This document shows, piece by piece, positions 39,344-55,902 of a stretch of 64,000 bases of DNA. The notes below the pieces were generated by a model. That model did no database searches and was not told the DNA's origin. It saw only the letters and a list, made by a program, of their open reading frames with translations. The position numbers were made by a program, and so were the translations under genes. The first letter of the stretch is position 1; every line of letters begins with the position of its first letter. Source of the stretch: a virus; IMG/VR virus record IMGVR_UViG_3300049995_000120, positions 16,506-80,505 of that record, one strand, 5' to 3'.

Positions 39344-39817
39344 CTAAATTGGCTCCTTGGGATTATGCCATTTCCAGTGTTTGCCCCGATGAGTATGGCC
39401 CATTTTGTATTTCATTTGACGCCCCCATTTATTACGAGACATTATAAGTTCGTGACACCCACATTGACAAGGCACCAAGGTGCGAGGCAATTTTCTTTTT
39501 TTAATGGTTTCTAAAAGTTGCTCAATCCGCTTTTGGGTTTTCTCCAAAGGCCAAGAACGAATATGATTTTGAGCATGTAAAGAGGGAGAGATTATCATAA
39601 GATTATCAATAGTGTTATCATCAGTAATGCCGTTGATATGATGAACATACTCTTTAGATTCTAAAAACCGCCGCAAATAGTTTTCCATGACTAATCTATG
39701 TTCAAAAACATAGCCATTTTTCTTGGCTTTTGGATGATTTGGACAACGAACCAAAATATATCTCTCTGAGCGTACTTTATGCCCAATCGGCAGAGGGGTC
39801 CATGTGTCCATTATCAC
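39344..39817 (-). CDS. HNH homing endonuclease
   Basis: HP.A...GYV.EHRLVME...VHHING..DDN...NL......H. Confidence 0.85.
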   Translation of the reverse strand: MIMDTWTPLPIGHKVRSERYILVRCPNHPKAKKNGYVFEHRLVMENYLRRFLESKEYVHHINGITDDNTIDNLMIISPSLHAQNHIRSWPLEKTQKRIEQLLETIKKRKLPRTLVPCQCGCHELIMSRNKWGRQMKYKMGHTHRGKHWKWHNPKEPI

Positions 39818-52851: not shown

Positions 52852-53394
52852 ATGAGTTACTATTTTACAAGTGATTTACATCTAAGTCATAGAAATATCA
52901 TCAAATACTGTAATCGTCCCTTTGATGACGTAGAAGAGATGAATCGAGTAATAAGGAACCGCTGGAACTTTGTGGTCAATCCCGATGATATCGTCTATAT
53001 TCTAGGCGATGTTTCTTTTAGAGGACTAGAAGATCTGGATGAGTTTAATGGGCTGATACATATTCTTCCCGGTTCACATGATGGGAAACTGAAACAGTTG
53101 GGGACTATAAATACTATTGAGCCATCTGTAGTAGAACTAAAAATCCCTGATTTAATGGATGAGTATGGCAACCAACGTACCCTCGTGCTTTGTCATTATG
53201 CCATGCGAGTCTGGCCCCTGTCCCATTATGCCTCCTGGCACTTGTTTGGACATAGTCACGGTAATCTACCGCCTTATGGATTATCCTTTGATGTGGGTAT
53301 AGACACTAATGAATTTTATCCATATTCACTGGAAGATATCAAGAAGAAGATGGCTACTTTAACTCCTATCGTGGATTTTAGAAAGGGAAAATGA
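52852..53394 (+). CDS. calcineurin-like metallophosphoesterase
   Basis: FTSDLH..H.NII, LGD, GSHD, CHY, GHSH, DVG.D. Confidence 0.85.
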   Translation: MSYYFTSDLHLSHRNIIKYCNRPFDDVEEMNRVIRNRWNFVVNPDDIVYILGDVSFRGLEDLDEFNGLIHILPGSHDGKLKQLGTINTIEPSVVELKIPDLMDEYGNQRTLVLCHYAMRVWPLSHYASWHLFGHSHGNLPPYGLSFDVGIDTNEFYPYSLEDIKKKMATLTPIVDFRKGK

Positions 53395-55853
53395 GAAGGA
53401 TATACACGGTAAATCAGGCTGATGTGATTGATTGGGCGACTGGATATACAGGAGAACCATTTCACGCGCTGTTGTGCGATCCGCCTTACGAGTATGGTTT
53501 TATGGGGAAAAGTTGGGATGCGACTGGTATTTCGTACAGGAAGGAAACTTGGGAAGCGTACTTGCGTATCCTGTGTCCAGGTGGATTTGGGATGGCATTT
53601 GGAGGAGCTAGGACGGCGCATAGGCTGGCGGTGGCGATCGAGGACGCCGGCTTTGTGATTCATCCCCAGATTGCGTGGATCTATGGATGCTTAAGTGACG
53701 ACACAGAAATTTTGACGCGGCGCGGATGGGCACGATACGACCGGTTATTTGATGGCTGTATGGTTATGTGCTATAATGTAAATAGTGGAACGTTGAATTT
53801 TCTTCCTGTAGAAAAGGTTTGTGTCTATGAGTATGATGATATTGCCTATCATATCGTCTCAGAAAGAACCGATCAAATTGTCTCCAGAAATCATCGGTGT
53901 TTGGTTGAACGAGACAACCGATTTGTGTTTCGGGCGGCGGAGACATTGGAATGCCAAGAGATCCTACCCATACTGGAAAGTGTGCAGGAAGTGCGGGAGG
54001 CTATATTCAGTAAAAAACGTAAAGGAATATTACAAGAAAACTACCTGCGGACTTTATTGTTGCAAAACGGTAACAGGACCGCGACCGCAAATGATCGTTC
54101 CGCTAGAAAAGCGCAAAATTACAATGATAGTCTGCGCGGTATGTGGAAAGAAGGCAATGAGGCCAAATGCGTGGGTAAGGAGGGTAAAATTGCCAACGTG
54201 CTCCAATCATTGCAATGGAATATTGCGCGCGAAAGATTTATTGCCATATTCGGGAAAAGGACGAAGTGGCTGGACCGCAGAAAGTCTTGCCTCTTTTCGG
54301 CTGAAAATGTCGGGAGAAAACAATCCTGCCTGGAAAGGTGGCGTTACTTATTTTTACAAGCACGGAAATTATGCGCCGATAAAATATGTGCGGTGTCCAG
54401 ACGAATTTTTACTTATGGCGCGCAAAGATGGCTATGTTATGGAACACCGTCTATTAGTTGCGCAAATACTTCAGCGGTGTCTAAAACGAGGGGAAATTGT
54501 CCATCATATCAACCACAATCCTCAGGACAATCGCTTGGAAAATCTACAGTTATTCGCCAGCAACTCGGCACACAAGAAATACGAACACTATGGAGAACCA
54601 TTTCCGATCTGGCAACTATAAATTCAATTCAATACAAAGGAACAGTTTGGTGTGTAAAAGTCCCAACTGGCGCGTTTGTCGCGCGCAGGAATGGAAAGGT
54701 TTTTATTACTGGAAATAGTGGCTTTCCGAAAGCTACTAGGTTGGATGCGAGGATCGATGAACAGGCCGGCGCGGCCAGGGAGGAGGTAGGGACGGTTCGC
54801 AGATGGGGTGCCAATGCGGGGAAGGGTAGGGGCAATCAATACGCCAATGAGTACGAACCGTCTGAACCAGGGGCGGAGAAGTATGATCCTATTACCGCGC
54901 CAACTACGCCACTGGCGCAGGCGTGGGCGGGACATCGGTACGGCCTGCAGGCGCTGAAACCCGCACTGGAACCGATTGTGGTATTCCAGAAGCCGTATGA
55001 GGGGAAACCCATTGACTGTATCACGCGCACAGGCGCGGGTGCGCTGAATATTGAAGGAAGTCGGATTGGCACGGAGCCTGTGATCTCAAACCGTTGGACC
55101 GACAACGCTCATCCATTTGGGGGCGGTGCGGGGAATCCCTACGAGACGGTGCATAATCGGGGCCGCTGGCCGGCGAATGTGGTGCTATCTCATCTTCCCG
55201 ACTGTGGCGAGACCTGCGTTCCTGGCTGTCCCGTGAAGGCATTGGGTGAACAGAGTGGAGTTCTGACGAGCGGGAAGCCGGCTGGATTGAGACATGCGCC
55301 TAATAACATCTATGGGGAATATGGAACGGAGATACCTGTTACGGGCTATGGCGATTCGGGTTCTGCCGCGCGCTTTTTCTACAATGCAGACTGGATGTAC
55401 GAGCGATTGGAGAAGGATGATGGATTTGTGTACTGCGCCAAGGCCAACAAGAATGATCGCGATGCTGGATTAGATTCTATGCCATTACGCCAGAAATACG
55501 CAAAGGATGGTCGTGGGAACAGTCACGAAATTTTTACCAGCGCGAGTGCTCACGATTCGTCGTGGGCGAAAAAGAATCCCGCTTATCCACAAAGAAACCA
55601 TCATCCTGCCATCAAGCCGATTGCGTTGGTGCGGCATTTGGCGACTTTACTTCTCCCGCCGGCGATGTATTCGCCGCGCAGGATTGTGGTGCCGTTCTGC
55701 GGGAGCGGAAGCGAGATGATCGGCTGCCTGCGCGCGGGCTGGGAAGTGATTGAGGGAATCGAGAAGGAGAGTGAGTATTGCGACATTGCGCGCGCAAGGC
55801 TGGAATACTGGGCGAAGATTCCCATACAGCGGGAATTACCGCTAAACACTTGA
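53391..55853 (+). CDS. DNA methyltransferase (N4C/N6A, beta-type) containing an intein
   Basis: DPPY, FMGKSWD, W.YG|SGFPK, LKPA.EPI, GRWPAN, HP.IKP..L, PFCGSGS. Confidence 0.9.
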   Translation: MRRIYTVNQADVIDWATGYTGEPFHALLCDPPYEYGFMGKSWDATGISYRKETWEAYLRILCPGGFGMAFGGARTAHRLAVAIEDAGFVIHPQIAWIYGCLSDDTEILTRRGWARYDRLFDGCMVMCYNVNSGTLNFLPVEKVCVYEYDDIAYHIVSERTDQIVSRNHRCLVERDNRFVFRAAETLECQEILPILESVQEVREAIFSKKRKGILQENYLRTLLLQNGNRTATANDRSARKAQNYNDSLRGMWKEGNEAKCVGKEGKIANVLQSLQWNIARERFIAIFGKRTKWLDRRKSCLFSAENVGRKQSCLERWRYLFLQARKLCADKICAVSRRIFTYGAQRWLCYGTPSISCANTSAVSKTRGNCPSYQPQSSGQSLGKSTVIRQQLGTQEIRTLWRTISDLATINSIQYKGTVWCVKVPTGAFVARRNGKVFITGNSGFPKATRLDARIDEQAGAAREEVGTVRRWGANAGKGRGNQYANEYEPSEPGAEKYDPITAPTTPLAQAWAGHRYGLQALKPALEPIVVFQKPYEGKPIDCITRTGAGALNIEGSRIGTEPVISNRWTDNAHPFGGGAGNPYETVHNRGRWPANVVLSHLPDCGETCVPGCPVKALGEQSGVLTSGKPAGLRHAPNNIYGEYGTEIPVTGYGDSGSAARFFYNADWMYERLEKDDGFVYCAKANKNDRDAGLDSMPLRQKYAKDGRGNSHEIFTSASAHDSSWAKKNPAYPQRNHHPAIKPIALVRHLATLLLPPAMYSPRRIVVPFCGSGSEMIGCLRAGWEVIEGIEKESEYCDIARARLEYWAKIPIQRELPLNT
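53688..54716 (+). mobile_element. intein (343 aa) in the DNA methyltransferase
   Basis: starts CLSDDTEILT..GW, block B VS.NH, ends YKG.VWC..VPTGAFVARRNGKVFITGN|S; removing it restores YG-SGFPK. Confidence 0.92.
53821..54621 (+). CDS. HNH endonuclease overprinted in the +1 frame of the intein (true start uncertain)
   Basis: CxxC fingers, GENNPAWKGG, GYVMEHRL..A......L...E.VHHINH...DNR.ENL. Confidence 0.85.
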   Translation: MSMSMMILPIISSQKEPIKLSPEIIGVWLNETTDLCFGRRRHWNAKRSYPYWKVCRKCGRLYSVKNVKEYYKKTTCGLYCCKTVTGPRPQMIVPLEKRKITMIVCAVCGKKAMRPNAWVRRVKLPTCSNHCNGILRAKDLLPYSGKGRSGWTAESLASFRLKMSGENNPAWKGGVTYFYKHGNYAPIKYVRCPDEFLLMARKDGYVMEHRLLVAQILQRCLKRGEIVHHINHNPQDNRLENLQLFASNSAHKKYEHYGEPFPIWQL

Positions 55854-55902
55854 CAGTACAATGACAGTGGAGTAGAATTGAGCGAGAAAGGAGAAAAATA
55901 TT

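What the first reader, a model, noticed from the sequence alone, without database searches (positions are those of the whole stretch)
53688..54716. Intein whose homing endonuclease is overprinted in a different reading frame
Seen: the intein frame is open for 343 codons with intact splicing motifs (Cys1, TGN|Ser), but its central ~200 aa has no nuclease motif. The +1 frame over the same DNA encodes a complete Zn-finger/GENNPAWKGG/HNH endonuclease that stops at 54621, just before the C-terminal splicing region. No clear SD plus start precedes the nuclease core. Known: inteins normally carry the endonuclease in frame; alternate-frame HNHs in phage methylase insertions have been noted but are little characterised. 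Inference: dual-coding DNA with the nuclease expressed by +1 frameshift or weak internal initiation, decoupling homing from splicing.
Basis: partly seen in the sequence, partly recalled or inferred. Interest (0 to 1): 0.75.

Follow-up and report, generated by a model that had tools for sequence, protein, structure and literature searches.

The report
Intein with a frame-shifted HNH gene
A phage DNA methyltransferase gene carries a self-splicing intein, and the middle of that intein encodes a complete HNH homing endonuclease in the +1 reading frame. The layout is real and shared by dozens of uncultured phages, but the general idea was first described in 2025.

Summary
Window 53391-55853 (+) encodes an 820-aa beta-class DNA methyltransferase. 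An intein of 343 codons (53688-54716) sits at the conserved YG|SGFPK site. Its two ends fold as a HINT splicing domain; its middle 190 residues are unstructured filler. The +1 frame of that middle encodes a 264-aa zinc-finger/HNH endonuclease (ATG 53827, stop 54621).

This is not an assembly error. Contigs from other runs are identical, and the same layout in the same relative frame occurs in 61 IMG/VR loci and 12 GTDB contigs.

Selection acts on both frames:
- The host frame has no stops in 54 loci, against 13 expected per locus.
- T is never used at HNH third positions where it would create a host-frame stop (0/2716, versus 37% elsewhere).
- Substitutions show the HNH frame is constrained in the core and the intein frame in the splicing domains.

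The most likely expression route is an own start codon, conserved 46 codons after Cys1, possibly fed by a conserved extended -10 promoter inside the intein. A frameshift is unlikely.

Close precedents exist: the out-of-frame HNH "ShiLan domain" and inteins with out-of-frame EndoVII-like nucleases (Gogarten lab, 2025). I rate this a new variant of a known kind.

The parts
53391..53687 (+). N-extein of the beta-class DNA methyltransferase (99 aa; contains the DPPY motif)
   Evidence: ORF and PF01555 / phrog_6025 matches. Aligns with methyltransferases that lack the intein.
53688..54716 (+). Intein, 343 codons in the methyltransferase frame: Cys1 ... Thr-Gly-Asn, followed by Ser+1
   Evidence: C1, H69, N343 and S+1 are invariant in 47 homologues. 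AlphaFold2 plus Foldseek give a HINT fold. Same insertion site and homologous splicing blocks as the ShiLan gp65 intein.
53688..53987 (+). N-terminal splicing domain (intein residues 1-100; block B is VSRNH)
   Evidence: pLDDT 94-98, all-beta. Intein-frame identity is 0.63-0.80 and exceeds HNH-frame identity over 53842-53930.
53749..53777 (+). Promoter-like site inside the intein: TTGATG, 17-nt spacer, TATAAT with extended -10 TGcTATAAT (codons Cys28-Tyr29-Asn30), ending 50 nt before the HNH ATG
   Evidence: Consensus scan, 10/12 match with TG. TG plus at least 5/6 of the -10 hexamer at the same aligned column in 27/47 loci, against a background of 1.9e-4 per position. T-ending synonymous codon at the last -10 base in 34/39, with 22 expected (P = 1.4e-4). 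Inferred, not shown.
53813..53817 (+). Weak Shine-Dalgarno-like AAAGG, 9 nt before the HNH ATG
   Evidence: Duplex energy -3.4 kcal/mol, against a median of -6.2 for this phage's genes.
53827..54621 (+). HNH homing-endonuclease gene in the +1 frame: 264 aa, two zinc-ribbon modules, GENNPAWKGG motif, HNH core, stop TAA at 54619-54621
   Evidence: PF13392 and phrog matches. 26 invariant columns include the catalytic H/N/H. AlphaFold2 mean pLDDT 85. Best structural match is I-HmuI, Z 5.6. 73% of single-nucleotide differences between close relatives are synonymous in this frame.
53827..53960 (+). Zone of true overlap: the HNH N-terminus is read over the intein block-B region
   Evidence: The intein frame is the better conserved here, and HNH codon position 2 (host position 3) varies most.
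53990..54590 (+). Intein-frame filler, kept open but otherwise unconstrained, over the HNH core
   Evidence: Host-frame identity 0.13-0.42 against 0.22-0.88 for the HNH frame. pLDDT below 50. 0/2716 T-ending codons in contexts that would create a stop.
54588..54716 (+). C-terminal splicing domain (blocks F and G: VWCVKVPTGAFVARRNGKVFITGN)
   Evidence: pLDDT 83-98. 24/24 residues identical to the ShiLan gp65 intein.
54717..55853 (+). C-extein of the methyltransferase (378 aa; FCGSGSE AdoMet-binding motif)
   Evidence: PF01555 over residues 715-800 and phrog_67. Homologues without the intein.

Best explanation
This is a homing intein in a phage DNA methyltransferase. The slot between its splicing blocks holds a separate HNH endonuclease gene read in the +1 frame, instead of the usual in-frame endonuclease domain.

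Ribosomes translating the methyltransferase read straight through the HNH DNA in the host frame. That produces about 190 residues of unstructured filler between the two halves of the HINT domain. Protein splicing (Cys1, Ser-x-x-His, terminal Asn, Ser+1) then removes the intein and its filler, and joins YG to SGFPK.

The HNH protein is made independently from its own ATG at 53827, inside codons 47-48 of the intein. It has a weak Shine-Dalgarno site. It probably also has its own transcript, started by an extended -10 promoter (53769-53777) that is itself encoded by intein codons Cys28-Tyr29-Asn30. The free nuclease presumably cuts intein-less alleles of the methyltransferase, so that repair copies the whole unit in.

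Shown here: both reading frames, the HINT fold, selection on each frame, avoidance of host-frame stops, and conservation of the start codon and promoter-like motif. Inferred: splicing, the transcription and translation starts, and the cleavage target.
For: - Anatomy.
- Same layout and same +1 frame: 81/82 loci are nested and 61 have the intein; 18/20 nested and 12 with the intein in GTDB contigs.
- Host frame kept open: 0 stops in 54 loci against 13.2 expected; no shuffle open in any locus; 0/2716 T3 at risk contexts against 2853/7665 elsewhere. The third frame has 11.9 stops per locus.
- Frame-specific selection: the better-conserved frame switches near 53960. In the HNH core, 126 of 172 single-nucleotide differences are synonymous in the HNH frame and 144 are non-synonymous in the host frame.
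- Splicing residues are invariant in 47 sequences. HINT fold at pLDDT above 90, matching solved inteins (6zgq 4.8e-6, and many at probability 1.00).
- HNH: confident model, catalytic residues invariant, I-HmuI is the top hit.
- Start: ATG at a fixed column in 31/54 loci, SD-like pairing enriched (48% against 21% at -5 kcal/mol or stronger, P = 0.002), upstream stops close by.
- Promoter-like element.
- Contigs from other runs are identical.
- The closest extein relatives lack the intein.
Against: - There is no expression data: no RNA run holds the locus.
- The window's own SD is weak, at -3.4 kcal/mol.
- 23/54 relatives lack an ATG at the main column, and 3 have no ATG at all upstream of the first zinc finger.
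- The ATG and the -10-like motif lie in codons for conserved intein residues (Tyr47; Cys-Tyr-Asn/Asp), so part of their conservation comes from the protein. The TAT-over-TAC excess at Tyr47 is only borderline (27/38 against 19.8 expected, P = 0.05).
- The penultimate intein residue is Gly rather than His, and splicing was not tested.
- No recent, near-identical transfer event was seen.
Confidence: 0.8

Rival explanations
1. The HNH is made by a programmed +1 ribosomal frameshift from the intein frame. The product would be a fusion of N-extein, the N-part of the intein, and the HNH.
For: The HNH frame stays open for 1-60 codons upstream of the conserved ATG column in relatives. Three loci have no ATG before the first zinc finger. 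The window's SD is weak.
Against: In many loci, including the window (stop at 53809-53811), an HNH-frame stop lies only 1-5 codons upstream of the conserved ATG. That leaves almost no room for a shift site, and no shared slippery motif was noticed. ATG and SD-like pairing are enriched at a fixed column. A promoter-like element sits 50 nt upstream.
Confidence: 0.07
2. The intein no longer splices. The whole 343-residue insert stays in the methyltransferase as a tolerated loop, as proposed for the ShiLan domain.
For: Related HNH genes sit in the same +1 frame in methyltransferases with no intein at all (class B). The penultimate His is absent, replaced by an invariant Gly.
Against: C1, H69, N343 and S+1 are invariant across 47 diverged sequences. 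The splicing domains are under stronger constraint in the intein frame than in the HNH frame. The fold is a confident HINT domain. The solved AceL NrdHF intein also lacks the penultimate His and splices well (PMC7891396).
Confidence: 0.06
3. The HNH ORF is a decaying relic, and the element is in effect a mini-intein with a long linker.
For: One intein-class relative (L064) has no single open HNH frame across the match. No close pair showing recent transfer was found.
Against: The HNH frame is intact in 54 non-redundant loci at 42-54% identity to the window's HNH (alignment A3). Catalytic residues are invariant. Third positions vary most, and 73% of single-nucleotide changes are synonymous.
Confidence: 0.03
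4. It is an artefact or an RNA-level element. Either compensating indel errors hide an in-frame HNH intein, or a self-splicing intron carries the HNH ORF.
For: In-frame HNH inteins and intron-borne HNH genes are both known (10.1101/2025.01.02.630785; PMC11855218).
Against: Contigs from other runs have no indels. More than 70 separate assemblies share the frame relation. No Rfam intron family matches, even at E up to 1. An intron would not need the host frame kept open, yet stops are avoided in 2716 of 2716 contexts.
Confidence: 0.01

Closest known systems
Actinobacteriophage methylase intein, e.g. ShiLan gp65 (Gosselin et al. 2023, PMC9957025)
   Same: Same methyltransferase family, same insertion point (YG|SGFPK) and homologous splicing domains. 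The N-side alignment across the junction (window residues 58-170) is 44% identical. Blocks F-G (VWCVKVPTGAFVARRNGKVFITGN) are 24/24 identical.
   Different: The ShiLan intein carries an in-frame LAGLIDADG endonuclease domain (PMC9957025). Here the slot holds a +1-frame HNH gene, and the in-frame translation is filler.
ShiLan domain: hidden out-of-frame HNH in a phage methylase (Arsenault, Gosselin and Gogarten 2025, PMC11855218)
   Same: An HNH endonuclease is overprinted inside the same methyltransferase family, with the host frame kept free of stops. The HNH is a homologue: 36.5% identity over the last 100 residues in phages Mantra and Totinger, 34% in ShiLan.
   Different: The ShiLan domain lies at another site (the EP.VVARKP motif) and is in frame 3 (+2; my frame calculation). 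It has no splicing domains, so the filler is thought to remain in the enzyme. It was described only in mycobacteriophages.
Non-canonical actinophage inteins with the endonuclease in a separate frame (Gosselin et al., bioRxiv 10.1101/2025.01.02.630785)
   Same: The concept is the same: intact splicing domains, unstructured in-frame middle, and the nuclease ORF on the same DNA in another frame. The proposed origin is invasion of an intein by a free-standing endonuclease gene.
   Different: Those are endonuclease VII-like genes in frame 3, or antisense LAGLIDADG/VSR genes. Their hosts are DNA polymerase, minor capsid, terminase and thymidylate synthase genes. HNH nucleases were reported only in frame. 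No stop-avoidance statistics, conserved start or promoter were described in the parts I read.
Fractured genes: split inteins with a free-standing endonuclease gene between the halves (Dassa et al. 2009, as cited in the preprint)
   Same: A free-standing type nuclease gene occupies the endonuclease slot of an intein.
   Different: There the host gene is broken into two genes and spliced in trans. Here the host frame stays continuous. This comparison rests on the preprint's description and my recall of the paper.

Membership tests
Intein (HINT protein-splicing domain) | Nucleophile at position 1 and block B T/S-x-x-H | tested here: met
   Cys1 and His69 are invariant and Ser66 is at least 90% conserved in 47 homologues. 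Window sequence: CLSDDTEIL ... VSRNH.
Intein (HINT protein-splicing domain) | C-terminal Asn followed by Ser/Thr/Cys as first C-extein residue | tested here: met
   Asn343 and Ser+1 are invariant.
Intein (HINT protein-splicing domain) | Penultimate His (block G) | tested here: not met
   Gly342 is invariant. This residue is not universal: the AceL NrdHF intein lacks it and splices (PMC7891396).
Intein (HINT protein-splicing domain) | HINT fold formed by the N- and C-terminal parts | tested here: met
   AlphaFold2 pLDDT above 90 for residues 1-100 and 311-344. Foldseek top hits are all inteins, BIL or Hedgehog domains: 6zgq 4.8e-6, and 19 hits at E up to 1e-3.
Intein (HINT protein-splicing domain) | Insertion in a conserved host motif that is contiguous in intein-free homologues | tested here: met
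   L097-L102 read YGQGFPK / FGSGFPK / YGSGFPK without interruption.
Intein (HINT protein-splicing domain) | Protein splicing actually occurs | not testable with these tools
   Requires expression and a western blot or mass spectrometry.
Intein mechanistic class (1 versus 3) | Class 3: no nucleophile at position 1, plus Trp B:12, Cys F:4, Thr G:5 | tested here: inconclusive
   By my placement of blocks F and G on the consensus, Cys322 falls at F:4 and Thr341 at G:5, both invariant as in class 3. But Cys1 is also invariant and B:12 is Cys, not Trp. The best structural match is a class 3 intein.
HNH endonuclease (Pfam HNH_3, beta-beta-alpha-metal) | Profile match above the curated cut-off | tested here: met
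   PF13392 at 31.1 bits against a 24.8 cut-off. 13 PHROG HNH families match, the best at 1.3e-14.
HNH endonuclease (Pfam HNH_3, beta-beta-alpha-metal) | Catalytic His ... Asn ... His residues | tested here: met
   H226, H227, N235, N239 and H249 are invariant in 47 sequences.
HNH endonuclease (Pfam HNH_3, beta-beta-alpha-metal) | Fold resembles solved HNH nucleases | tested here: inconclusive
   I-HmuI is the top hit: Z 5.6, rmsd 3.8, 73 residues aligned over model residues 171-257. Other HNH entries score Z 2.7-2.8. These Z values lie within the range of common arrangements. Foldseek on the whole multi-domain model found nothing.
HNH endonuclease (Pfam HNH_3, beta-beta-alpha-metal) | Site-specific cleavage of the intein-less allele (homing) | not testable with these tools
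   Only indirect support: the closest extein relatives lack the intein.
Inteins with an out-of-frame endonuclease (Gosselin et al. 2025 preprint) | Nuclease ORF between the splicing blocks, same strand, different frame, with a non-folding in-frame middle | tested here: met
   HNH start is 46 codons after Cys1 and its stop is 32 codons before the intein end.
Inteins with an out-of-frame endonuclease (Gosselin et al. 2025 preprint) | Endonuclease VII-like nuclease in frame 3 | tested here: not met
   Here the nuclease is an HNH in frame 2 (+1).
ShiLan domain (PMC11855218) | Out-of-frame HNH insertion in this methyltransferase family with no splicing domains | tested here: not met
   The out-of-frame HNH is present and homologous, but it is flanked by intact intein splicing domains, lies at a different site and is in a different frame.
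Group I/II intron carrying an HNH ORF | Recognisable intron RNA core | tested here: inconclusive
   No Rfam intron match at E up to 1 over 53300-55900. Selection to keep the host frame open argues against RNA splicing.

The most novel reading that the evidence does not exclude
The intein and the HNH gene may have co-evolved into one integrated selfish unit. In it, the coding sequence of the N-terminal splicing domain would also serve as promoter (Cys28-Tyr29-Asn30 = TGcTATAAT), 5' leader, ribosome-binding site (Glu/Lys codons) and start codon (Tyr47-Glu48) of the nuclease gene. The same HNH lineage also moves between three settings in one methyltransferase family: free-standing, intein-protected, and unprotected (class B and ShiLan). 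Together these would form a living series showing how free-standing homing endonuclease genes colonise inteins. They could then either drift into frame to give canonical inteins or break the host gene to give split inteins.
Probability: 0.35. Interest if true: 0.7.

Novelty: new variant of a known kind. Interest (0 to 1): 0.55.

Why it matters
The finding shows that the overprinted arrangements recently described in mycobacteriophages are not curiosities. This HNH-in-intein form is a large, old and strictly conserved family in uncultured phages; the holder runs for this window are labelled freshwater sediment, and related contigs sit in MAGs labelled as many different phyla.

It gives an unusually clean example of selection on two overlapping frames. 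One frame is selected for protein sequence. The other is selected only for having no stop codons, visible as a total ban on T at 2716 at-risk third positions.

It links three known forms in one methyltransferase family: the in-frame LAGLIDADG intein, the intein-less ShiLan HNH, and out-of-frame intein nucleases. That supports the view that intein endonuclease domains arise when free-standing nuclease genes invade splicing domains.

In practice, gene callers annotate only the long ORF. These nucleases are therefore missed, and such inteins are likely to be misread as decaying or as mini-inteins.

Tried and rejected
- Polar-filler idea. I asked whether the +1 frame is favoured because it makes the filler unusually polar. 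It does not: hydrophobic residues are 0.24 in the filler against 0.25 in the C-extein.
- HNH structure searches. Foldseek with the whole HNH model found no hit at E up to 1e-3. A profile search of PDB sequences returned only weak zinc-finger matches, E 0.026 or worse. Only the wide VIA search placed the HNH core next to I-HmuI.
- Pfam did not detect the LAGLIDADG domain in ShiLan gp65 at E up to 0.01. That point rests on PMC9957025.
- Rfam: one hit over 53300-55900, a sub-threshold MALAT1 match that I take as chance.
- Expression: no RNA holder is listed for this stretch.
- Phage GenBank records: only one near relative with the same layout, LR756508.
- HNH tree: only the quick version finished, not the careful one. 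Class B sequences nest inside the intein-class diversity, but no branch separating them has strong support. No order of events can be claimed.
- TAT-versus-TAC test at Tyr47, which creates the ATG: borderline only (P = 0.05).
- I did not search formally for a frameshift-prone motif. None was evident by eye.
Full report
**What is in the sequence**

The + strand ORF 53391..55853 encodes an 820-aa protein that matches the N6/N4 DNA methylase family (PF01555) and several phage methyltransferase PHROGs. After ...IAWIYG the protein continues CLSDDTEILT... (Cys codon at 53688). It returns to the methyltransferase after ...RNGKVFITGN with SGFPK (Ser codon at 54717).

The 343 codons between are open. 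Their middle is rich in Lys, Arg, Gln and Ser, and has no family match.

One base to the right, a second frame is open from 53812 to 54618, with a TAA stop at 54619-54621. It encodes two CxxC...C..C zinc-ribbon modules, the motif GENNPAWKGG and an HNH core (HHINHNPQDNRLENL...H). It scores above Pfam's cut-off for HNH_3 (31.1 against 24.8 bits) and matches 13 PHROG HNH families.

**It is not an artefact and not chance**

- Contigs from three other freshwater-sediment runs (X2, X3, X4) lie on parts of 53631-54800 with no substitutions and no gaps. X2 and X3 cover both ends of the HNH ORF.
- A 484-kb uncultured phage (LR756508) has the same architecture, with an HNH only 38% identical.
- A profile scan of IMG/VR returned 123 relatives, of which 80 were fetched. 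Of the 82 loci analysed (80 fetched, plus LR756508 and the window), 81 have the HNH nested in a longer ORF that stays open through it. The HNH is always in the +1 frame relative to that ORF.
- 61 of those 82 have the intein signature at YG|SGFPK.
- In GTDB genomes, 18 of 20 hits are nested in +1 and 12 have the intein.

**Selection on two frames**

In 54 non-redundant intein-class loci the host frame has no stop across the HNH ORF.

- Shuffling synonymous codons within each HNH ORF gives 13.2 host-frame stops per locus, and never an open frame (0 of 500 shuffles in every locus).
- A host-frame stop can arise only when an HNH codon ending in T precedes a codon starting AA, AG or GA. T is used in 0 of 2716 such contexts, against 2853 of 7665 (37%) elsewhere.
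- The unused third frame has 11.9 stops per locus.

Column-by-column conservation shows a switch of the constrained frame near 53960:

| Region | Intein-frame identity | HNH-frame identity | Most variable base |
|---|---|---|---|
| 53842-53930 | 0.63-0.80 | 0.44-0.51 | intein codon position 3 |
| 53990-54620 | 0.13-0.42 | 0.22-0.88 | HNH codon position 3 |

Among close pairs, the HNH core shows 172 single-nucleotide differences. Of these, 126 are synonymous in the HNH frame and 144 are non-synonymous in the host frame.

I tested this and it fails: the HNH frame is under purifying selection.

**The intein**

An alignment of 47 intein-frame sequences has Cys1, His69 (block B, S-R-N-H), Asn343 and Ser+1 invariant. 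AlphaFold2 gives pLDDT 94-98 for residues 1-100 and 83-98 for 301-344, all beta strands, and below 50 for 111-300. Foldseek returns only inteins, bacterial intein-like domains and Hedgehog autoprocessing domains. The best is the AceL NrdHF intein, 6zgq, at 4.8e-6.

The exteins keep the DPPY and FCGSGSE motifs. The closest extein relatives, at 32-48% identity, read YGSGFPK or a near variant without interruption.

Mycobacteriophage ShiLan gp65 has an intein at the same point. Its splicing blocks are homologous, with blocks F-G 24/24 identical. Its middle is an in-frame LAGLIDADG domain (PMC9957025). The window's element is therefore the same intein allele with a different occupant in the endonuclease slot.

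One oddity concerns mechanistic class. Besides Cys1, the family has an invariant Cys that I place at block F position 4 and an invariant Thr at block G position 5. It also has Gly in place of the penultimate His. These features recall class 3 inteins such as AceL NrdHF (PMC7891396), so I leave the class open.

**The nuclease**

The 264-aa model has mean pLDDT 85. A disordered tip (residues 2-13) is followed by a helix (20-35), two zinc-ribbon hairpins and the HNH core. The core's best match among 48,161 PDB representatives is the homing endonuclease I-HmuI (Z 5.6). I-PpoI and other HNH enzymes follow. These are weak scores but consistent with the Pfam match. The catalytic His, Asn and His are invariant.

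Two relatives are free-standing. One lies directly downstream of an uninterrupted methyltransferase gene on a Curtobacterium plasmid.

**How the nuclease is probably made**

The architecture is very regular. The HNH start column lies 46 codons after Cys1 in nearly all loci, and the stop lies 32 codons (sometimes 20-29) before the intein end.

- Start codon. An ATG occupies that column in 31 of 54 loci, including the window (53827, formed by Tyr47 TAT plus the G of Glu48). Most of the others have an ATG about 15 codons upstream, at a second recurrent position. Three have none.
- Ribosome binding. Pairing to the anti-Shine-Dalgarno sequence is stronger upstream of the conserved ATG than at background positions (48% against 21% at -5 kcal/mol or stronger; P = 0.002). 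Several relatives show AGGAG or AGGAGG at 8-10 nt. The window has only AAAGG at 9 nt (-3.4 kcal/mol), weaker than the phage's median of -6.2.
- Upstream stops. HNH-frame stops often lie 1-5 codons upstream of the ATG. In the window the stop is at 53809-53811. This leaves little room for a frameshift site.
- Promoter. A consensus scan found TTGATG-17-TATAAT with an extended -10 (TGcTATAAT, 53769-53777), ending 50 nt upstream of the ATG. At the same aligned column, 27 of 47 loci have TG plus at least 5/6 of TATAAT. The background rate is 1.9e-4 per position.
  - The last -10 base is a synonymous site of Asn/Asp30. It is T in 34 of 39 loci, with 22 expected (P = 1.4e-4). Asn is AAT 17 times and AAC never.
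  - The ShiLan-type LAGLIDADG intein has other residues at that place.
  - Perfect TGNTATAAT is over-represented in the window: 8 found, 2.8 expected.

I therefore favour an internal promoter plus internal initiation. This remains an inference. Part of the motif conservation may come from the intein protein, the TAT excess at Tyr47 is only borderline, and no RNA data exist.

**Wider family**

About 20 IMG/VR loci and several GTDB contigs carry a related, shorter HNH in the same +1 frame in methyltransferases that have no intein. It sits 20-40 residues after an intact YGSGFPK, often between CxC and CxxC in the host frame. I call these class B.

In a quick tree they fall inside the intein-class diversity, without strong support. 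Mycobacteriophages Mantra and ShiLan carry the published ShiLan domain further downstream in the +2 frame.

**What is known**

- Arsenault, Gosselin and Gogarten (2025, PMC11855218) described the ShiLan domain as a hidden out-of-frame HNH in this methyltransferase family, without splicing domains.
- Gosselin et al. (bioRxiv 10.1101/2025.01.02.630785) reported actinophage inteins whose nuclease lies in another frame (endonuclease VII-like, frame 3) or on the other strand. They proposed invasion of inteins by free-standing nuclease genes. In the passages I read, HNH nucleases in inteins appear only in frame, and methyltransferases are not among the hosts of the non-canonical inteins.

The present element combines the two: a ShiLan-type HNH, in the +1 frame, inside the methylase intein. 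It occurs widely outside actinophages.

**Verdict**

It is a new variant of a kind described only in 2025. Interest is moderate to good. It gives a clean, testable dual-coding system and a large family. The concept itself is no longer new, and expression, splicing and cleavage remain untested.

Noticed in passing
L009-L012, L014, L063, L065-L066, L069, L073-L075, L077, L080-L081, L083, L087-L089, L091-L093, L095, L103, L118, L120-L122, L125: Class B. A related, shorter HNH gene is nested in the +1 frame of methyltransferases that have no intein. It lies 20-40 residues after an intact YGSGFPK, with the host frame open through it. It is often bracketed by CxC ... CxxC in the host frame, as if inserted in a zinc ribbon. 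It resembles the ShiLan domain but has a different site and frame.
   Followed up: partly
L072:1705-4428: One methyltransferase has the intein with its +1 HNH, and also a second long insertion between duplicated EPVIVAQKP / EPIVLARKP motifs. That is the site of the published ShiLan domain.
   Followed up: no
window 53688-54716 (alignment A2): The intein family combines Cys1 with an invariant Cys that I place at block F position 4, Thr at block G position 5 and Gly instead of the penultimate His. This mixes class 1 and class 3 features. The best structural match is the class 3 AceL NrdHF intein.
   Followed up: partly
L064:2501-3238: In one intein-class relative the HNH frame is interrupted while the host frame stays open. 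It may be a decaying nuclease.
   Followed up: no
L117 (Curtobacterium pusillum plasmid pCPAA3, CP018784.1) and L057: These are free-standing relatives of the HNH. In L117 it lies directly downstream of an uninterrupted methyltransferase gene.
   Followed up: partly
window 39572-39754 (-) = G000:C1:56077-56259: A second, distant HNH core in the same phage (E 2.2e-11, 46% identity over residues 189-252 of the query).
   Followed up: no
window 46, 3510, 5097, 13193, 28083, 41307, 53769, 59977: The perfect extended -10 motif TGNTATAAT occurs 8 times against 2.8 expected by chance. None of 100 shuffles reaches 8.
   Followed up: partly
L002:1263-3635 (Mantra gp64): An in-frame LAGLIDADG-like insert (WLAGLIDGEGCF) lies near the N-terminus of this methyltransferase with no splicing blocks. 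It matches the 'second endonuclease' of PMC9957025.
   Followed up: no
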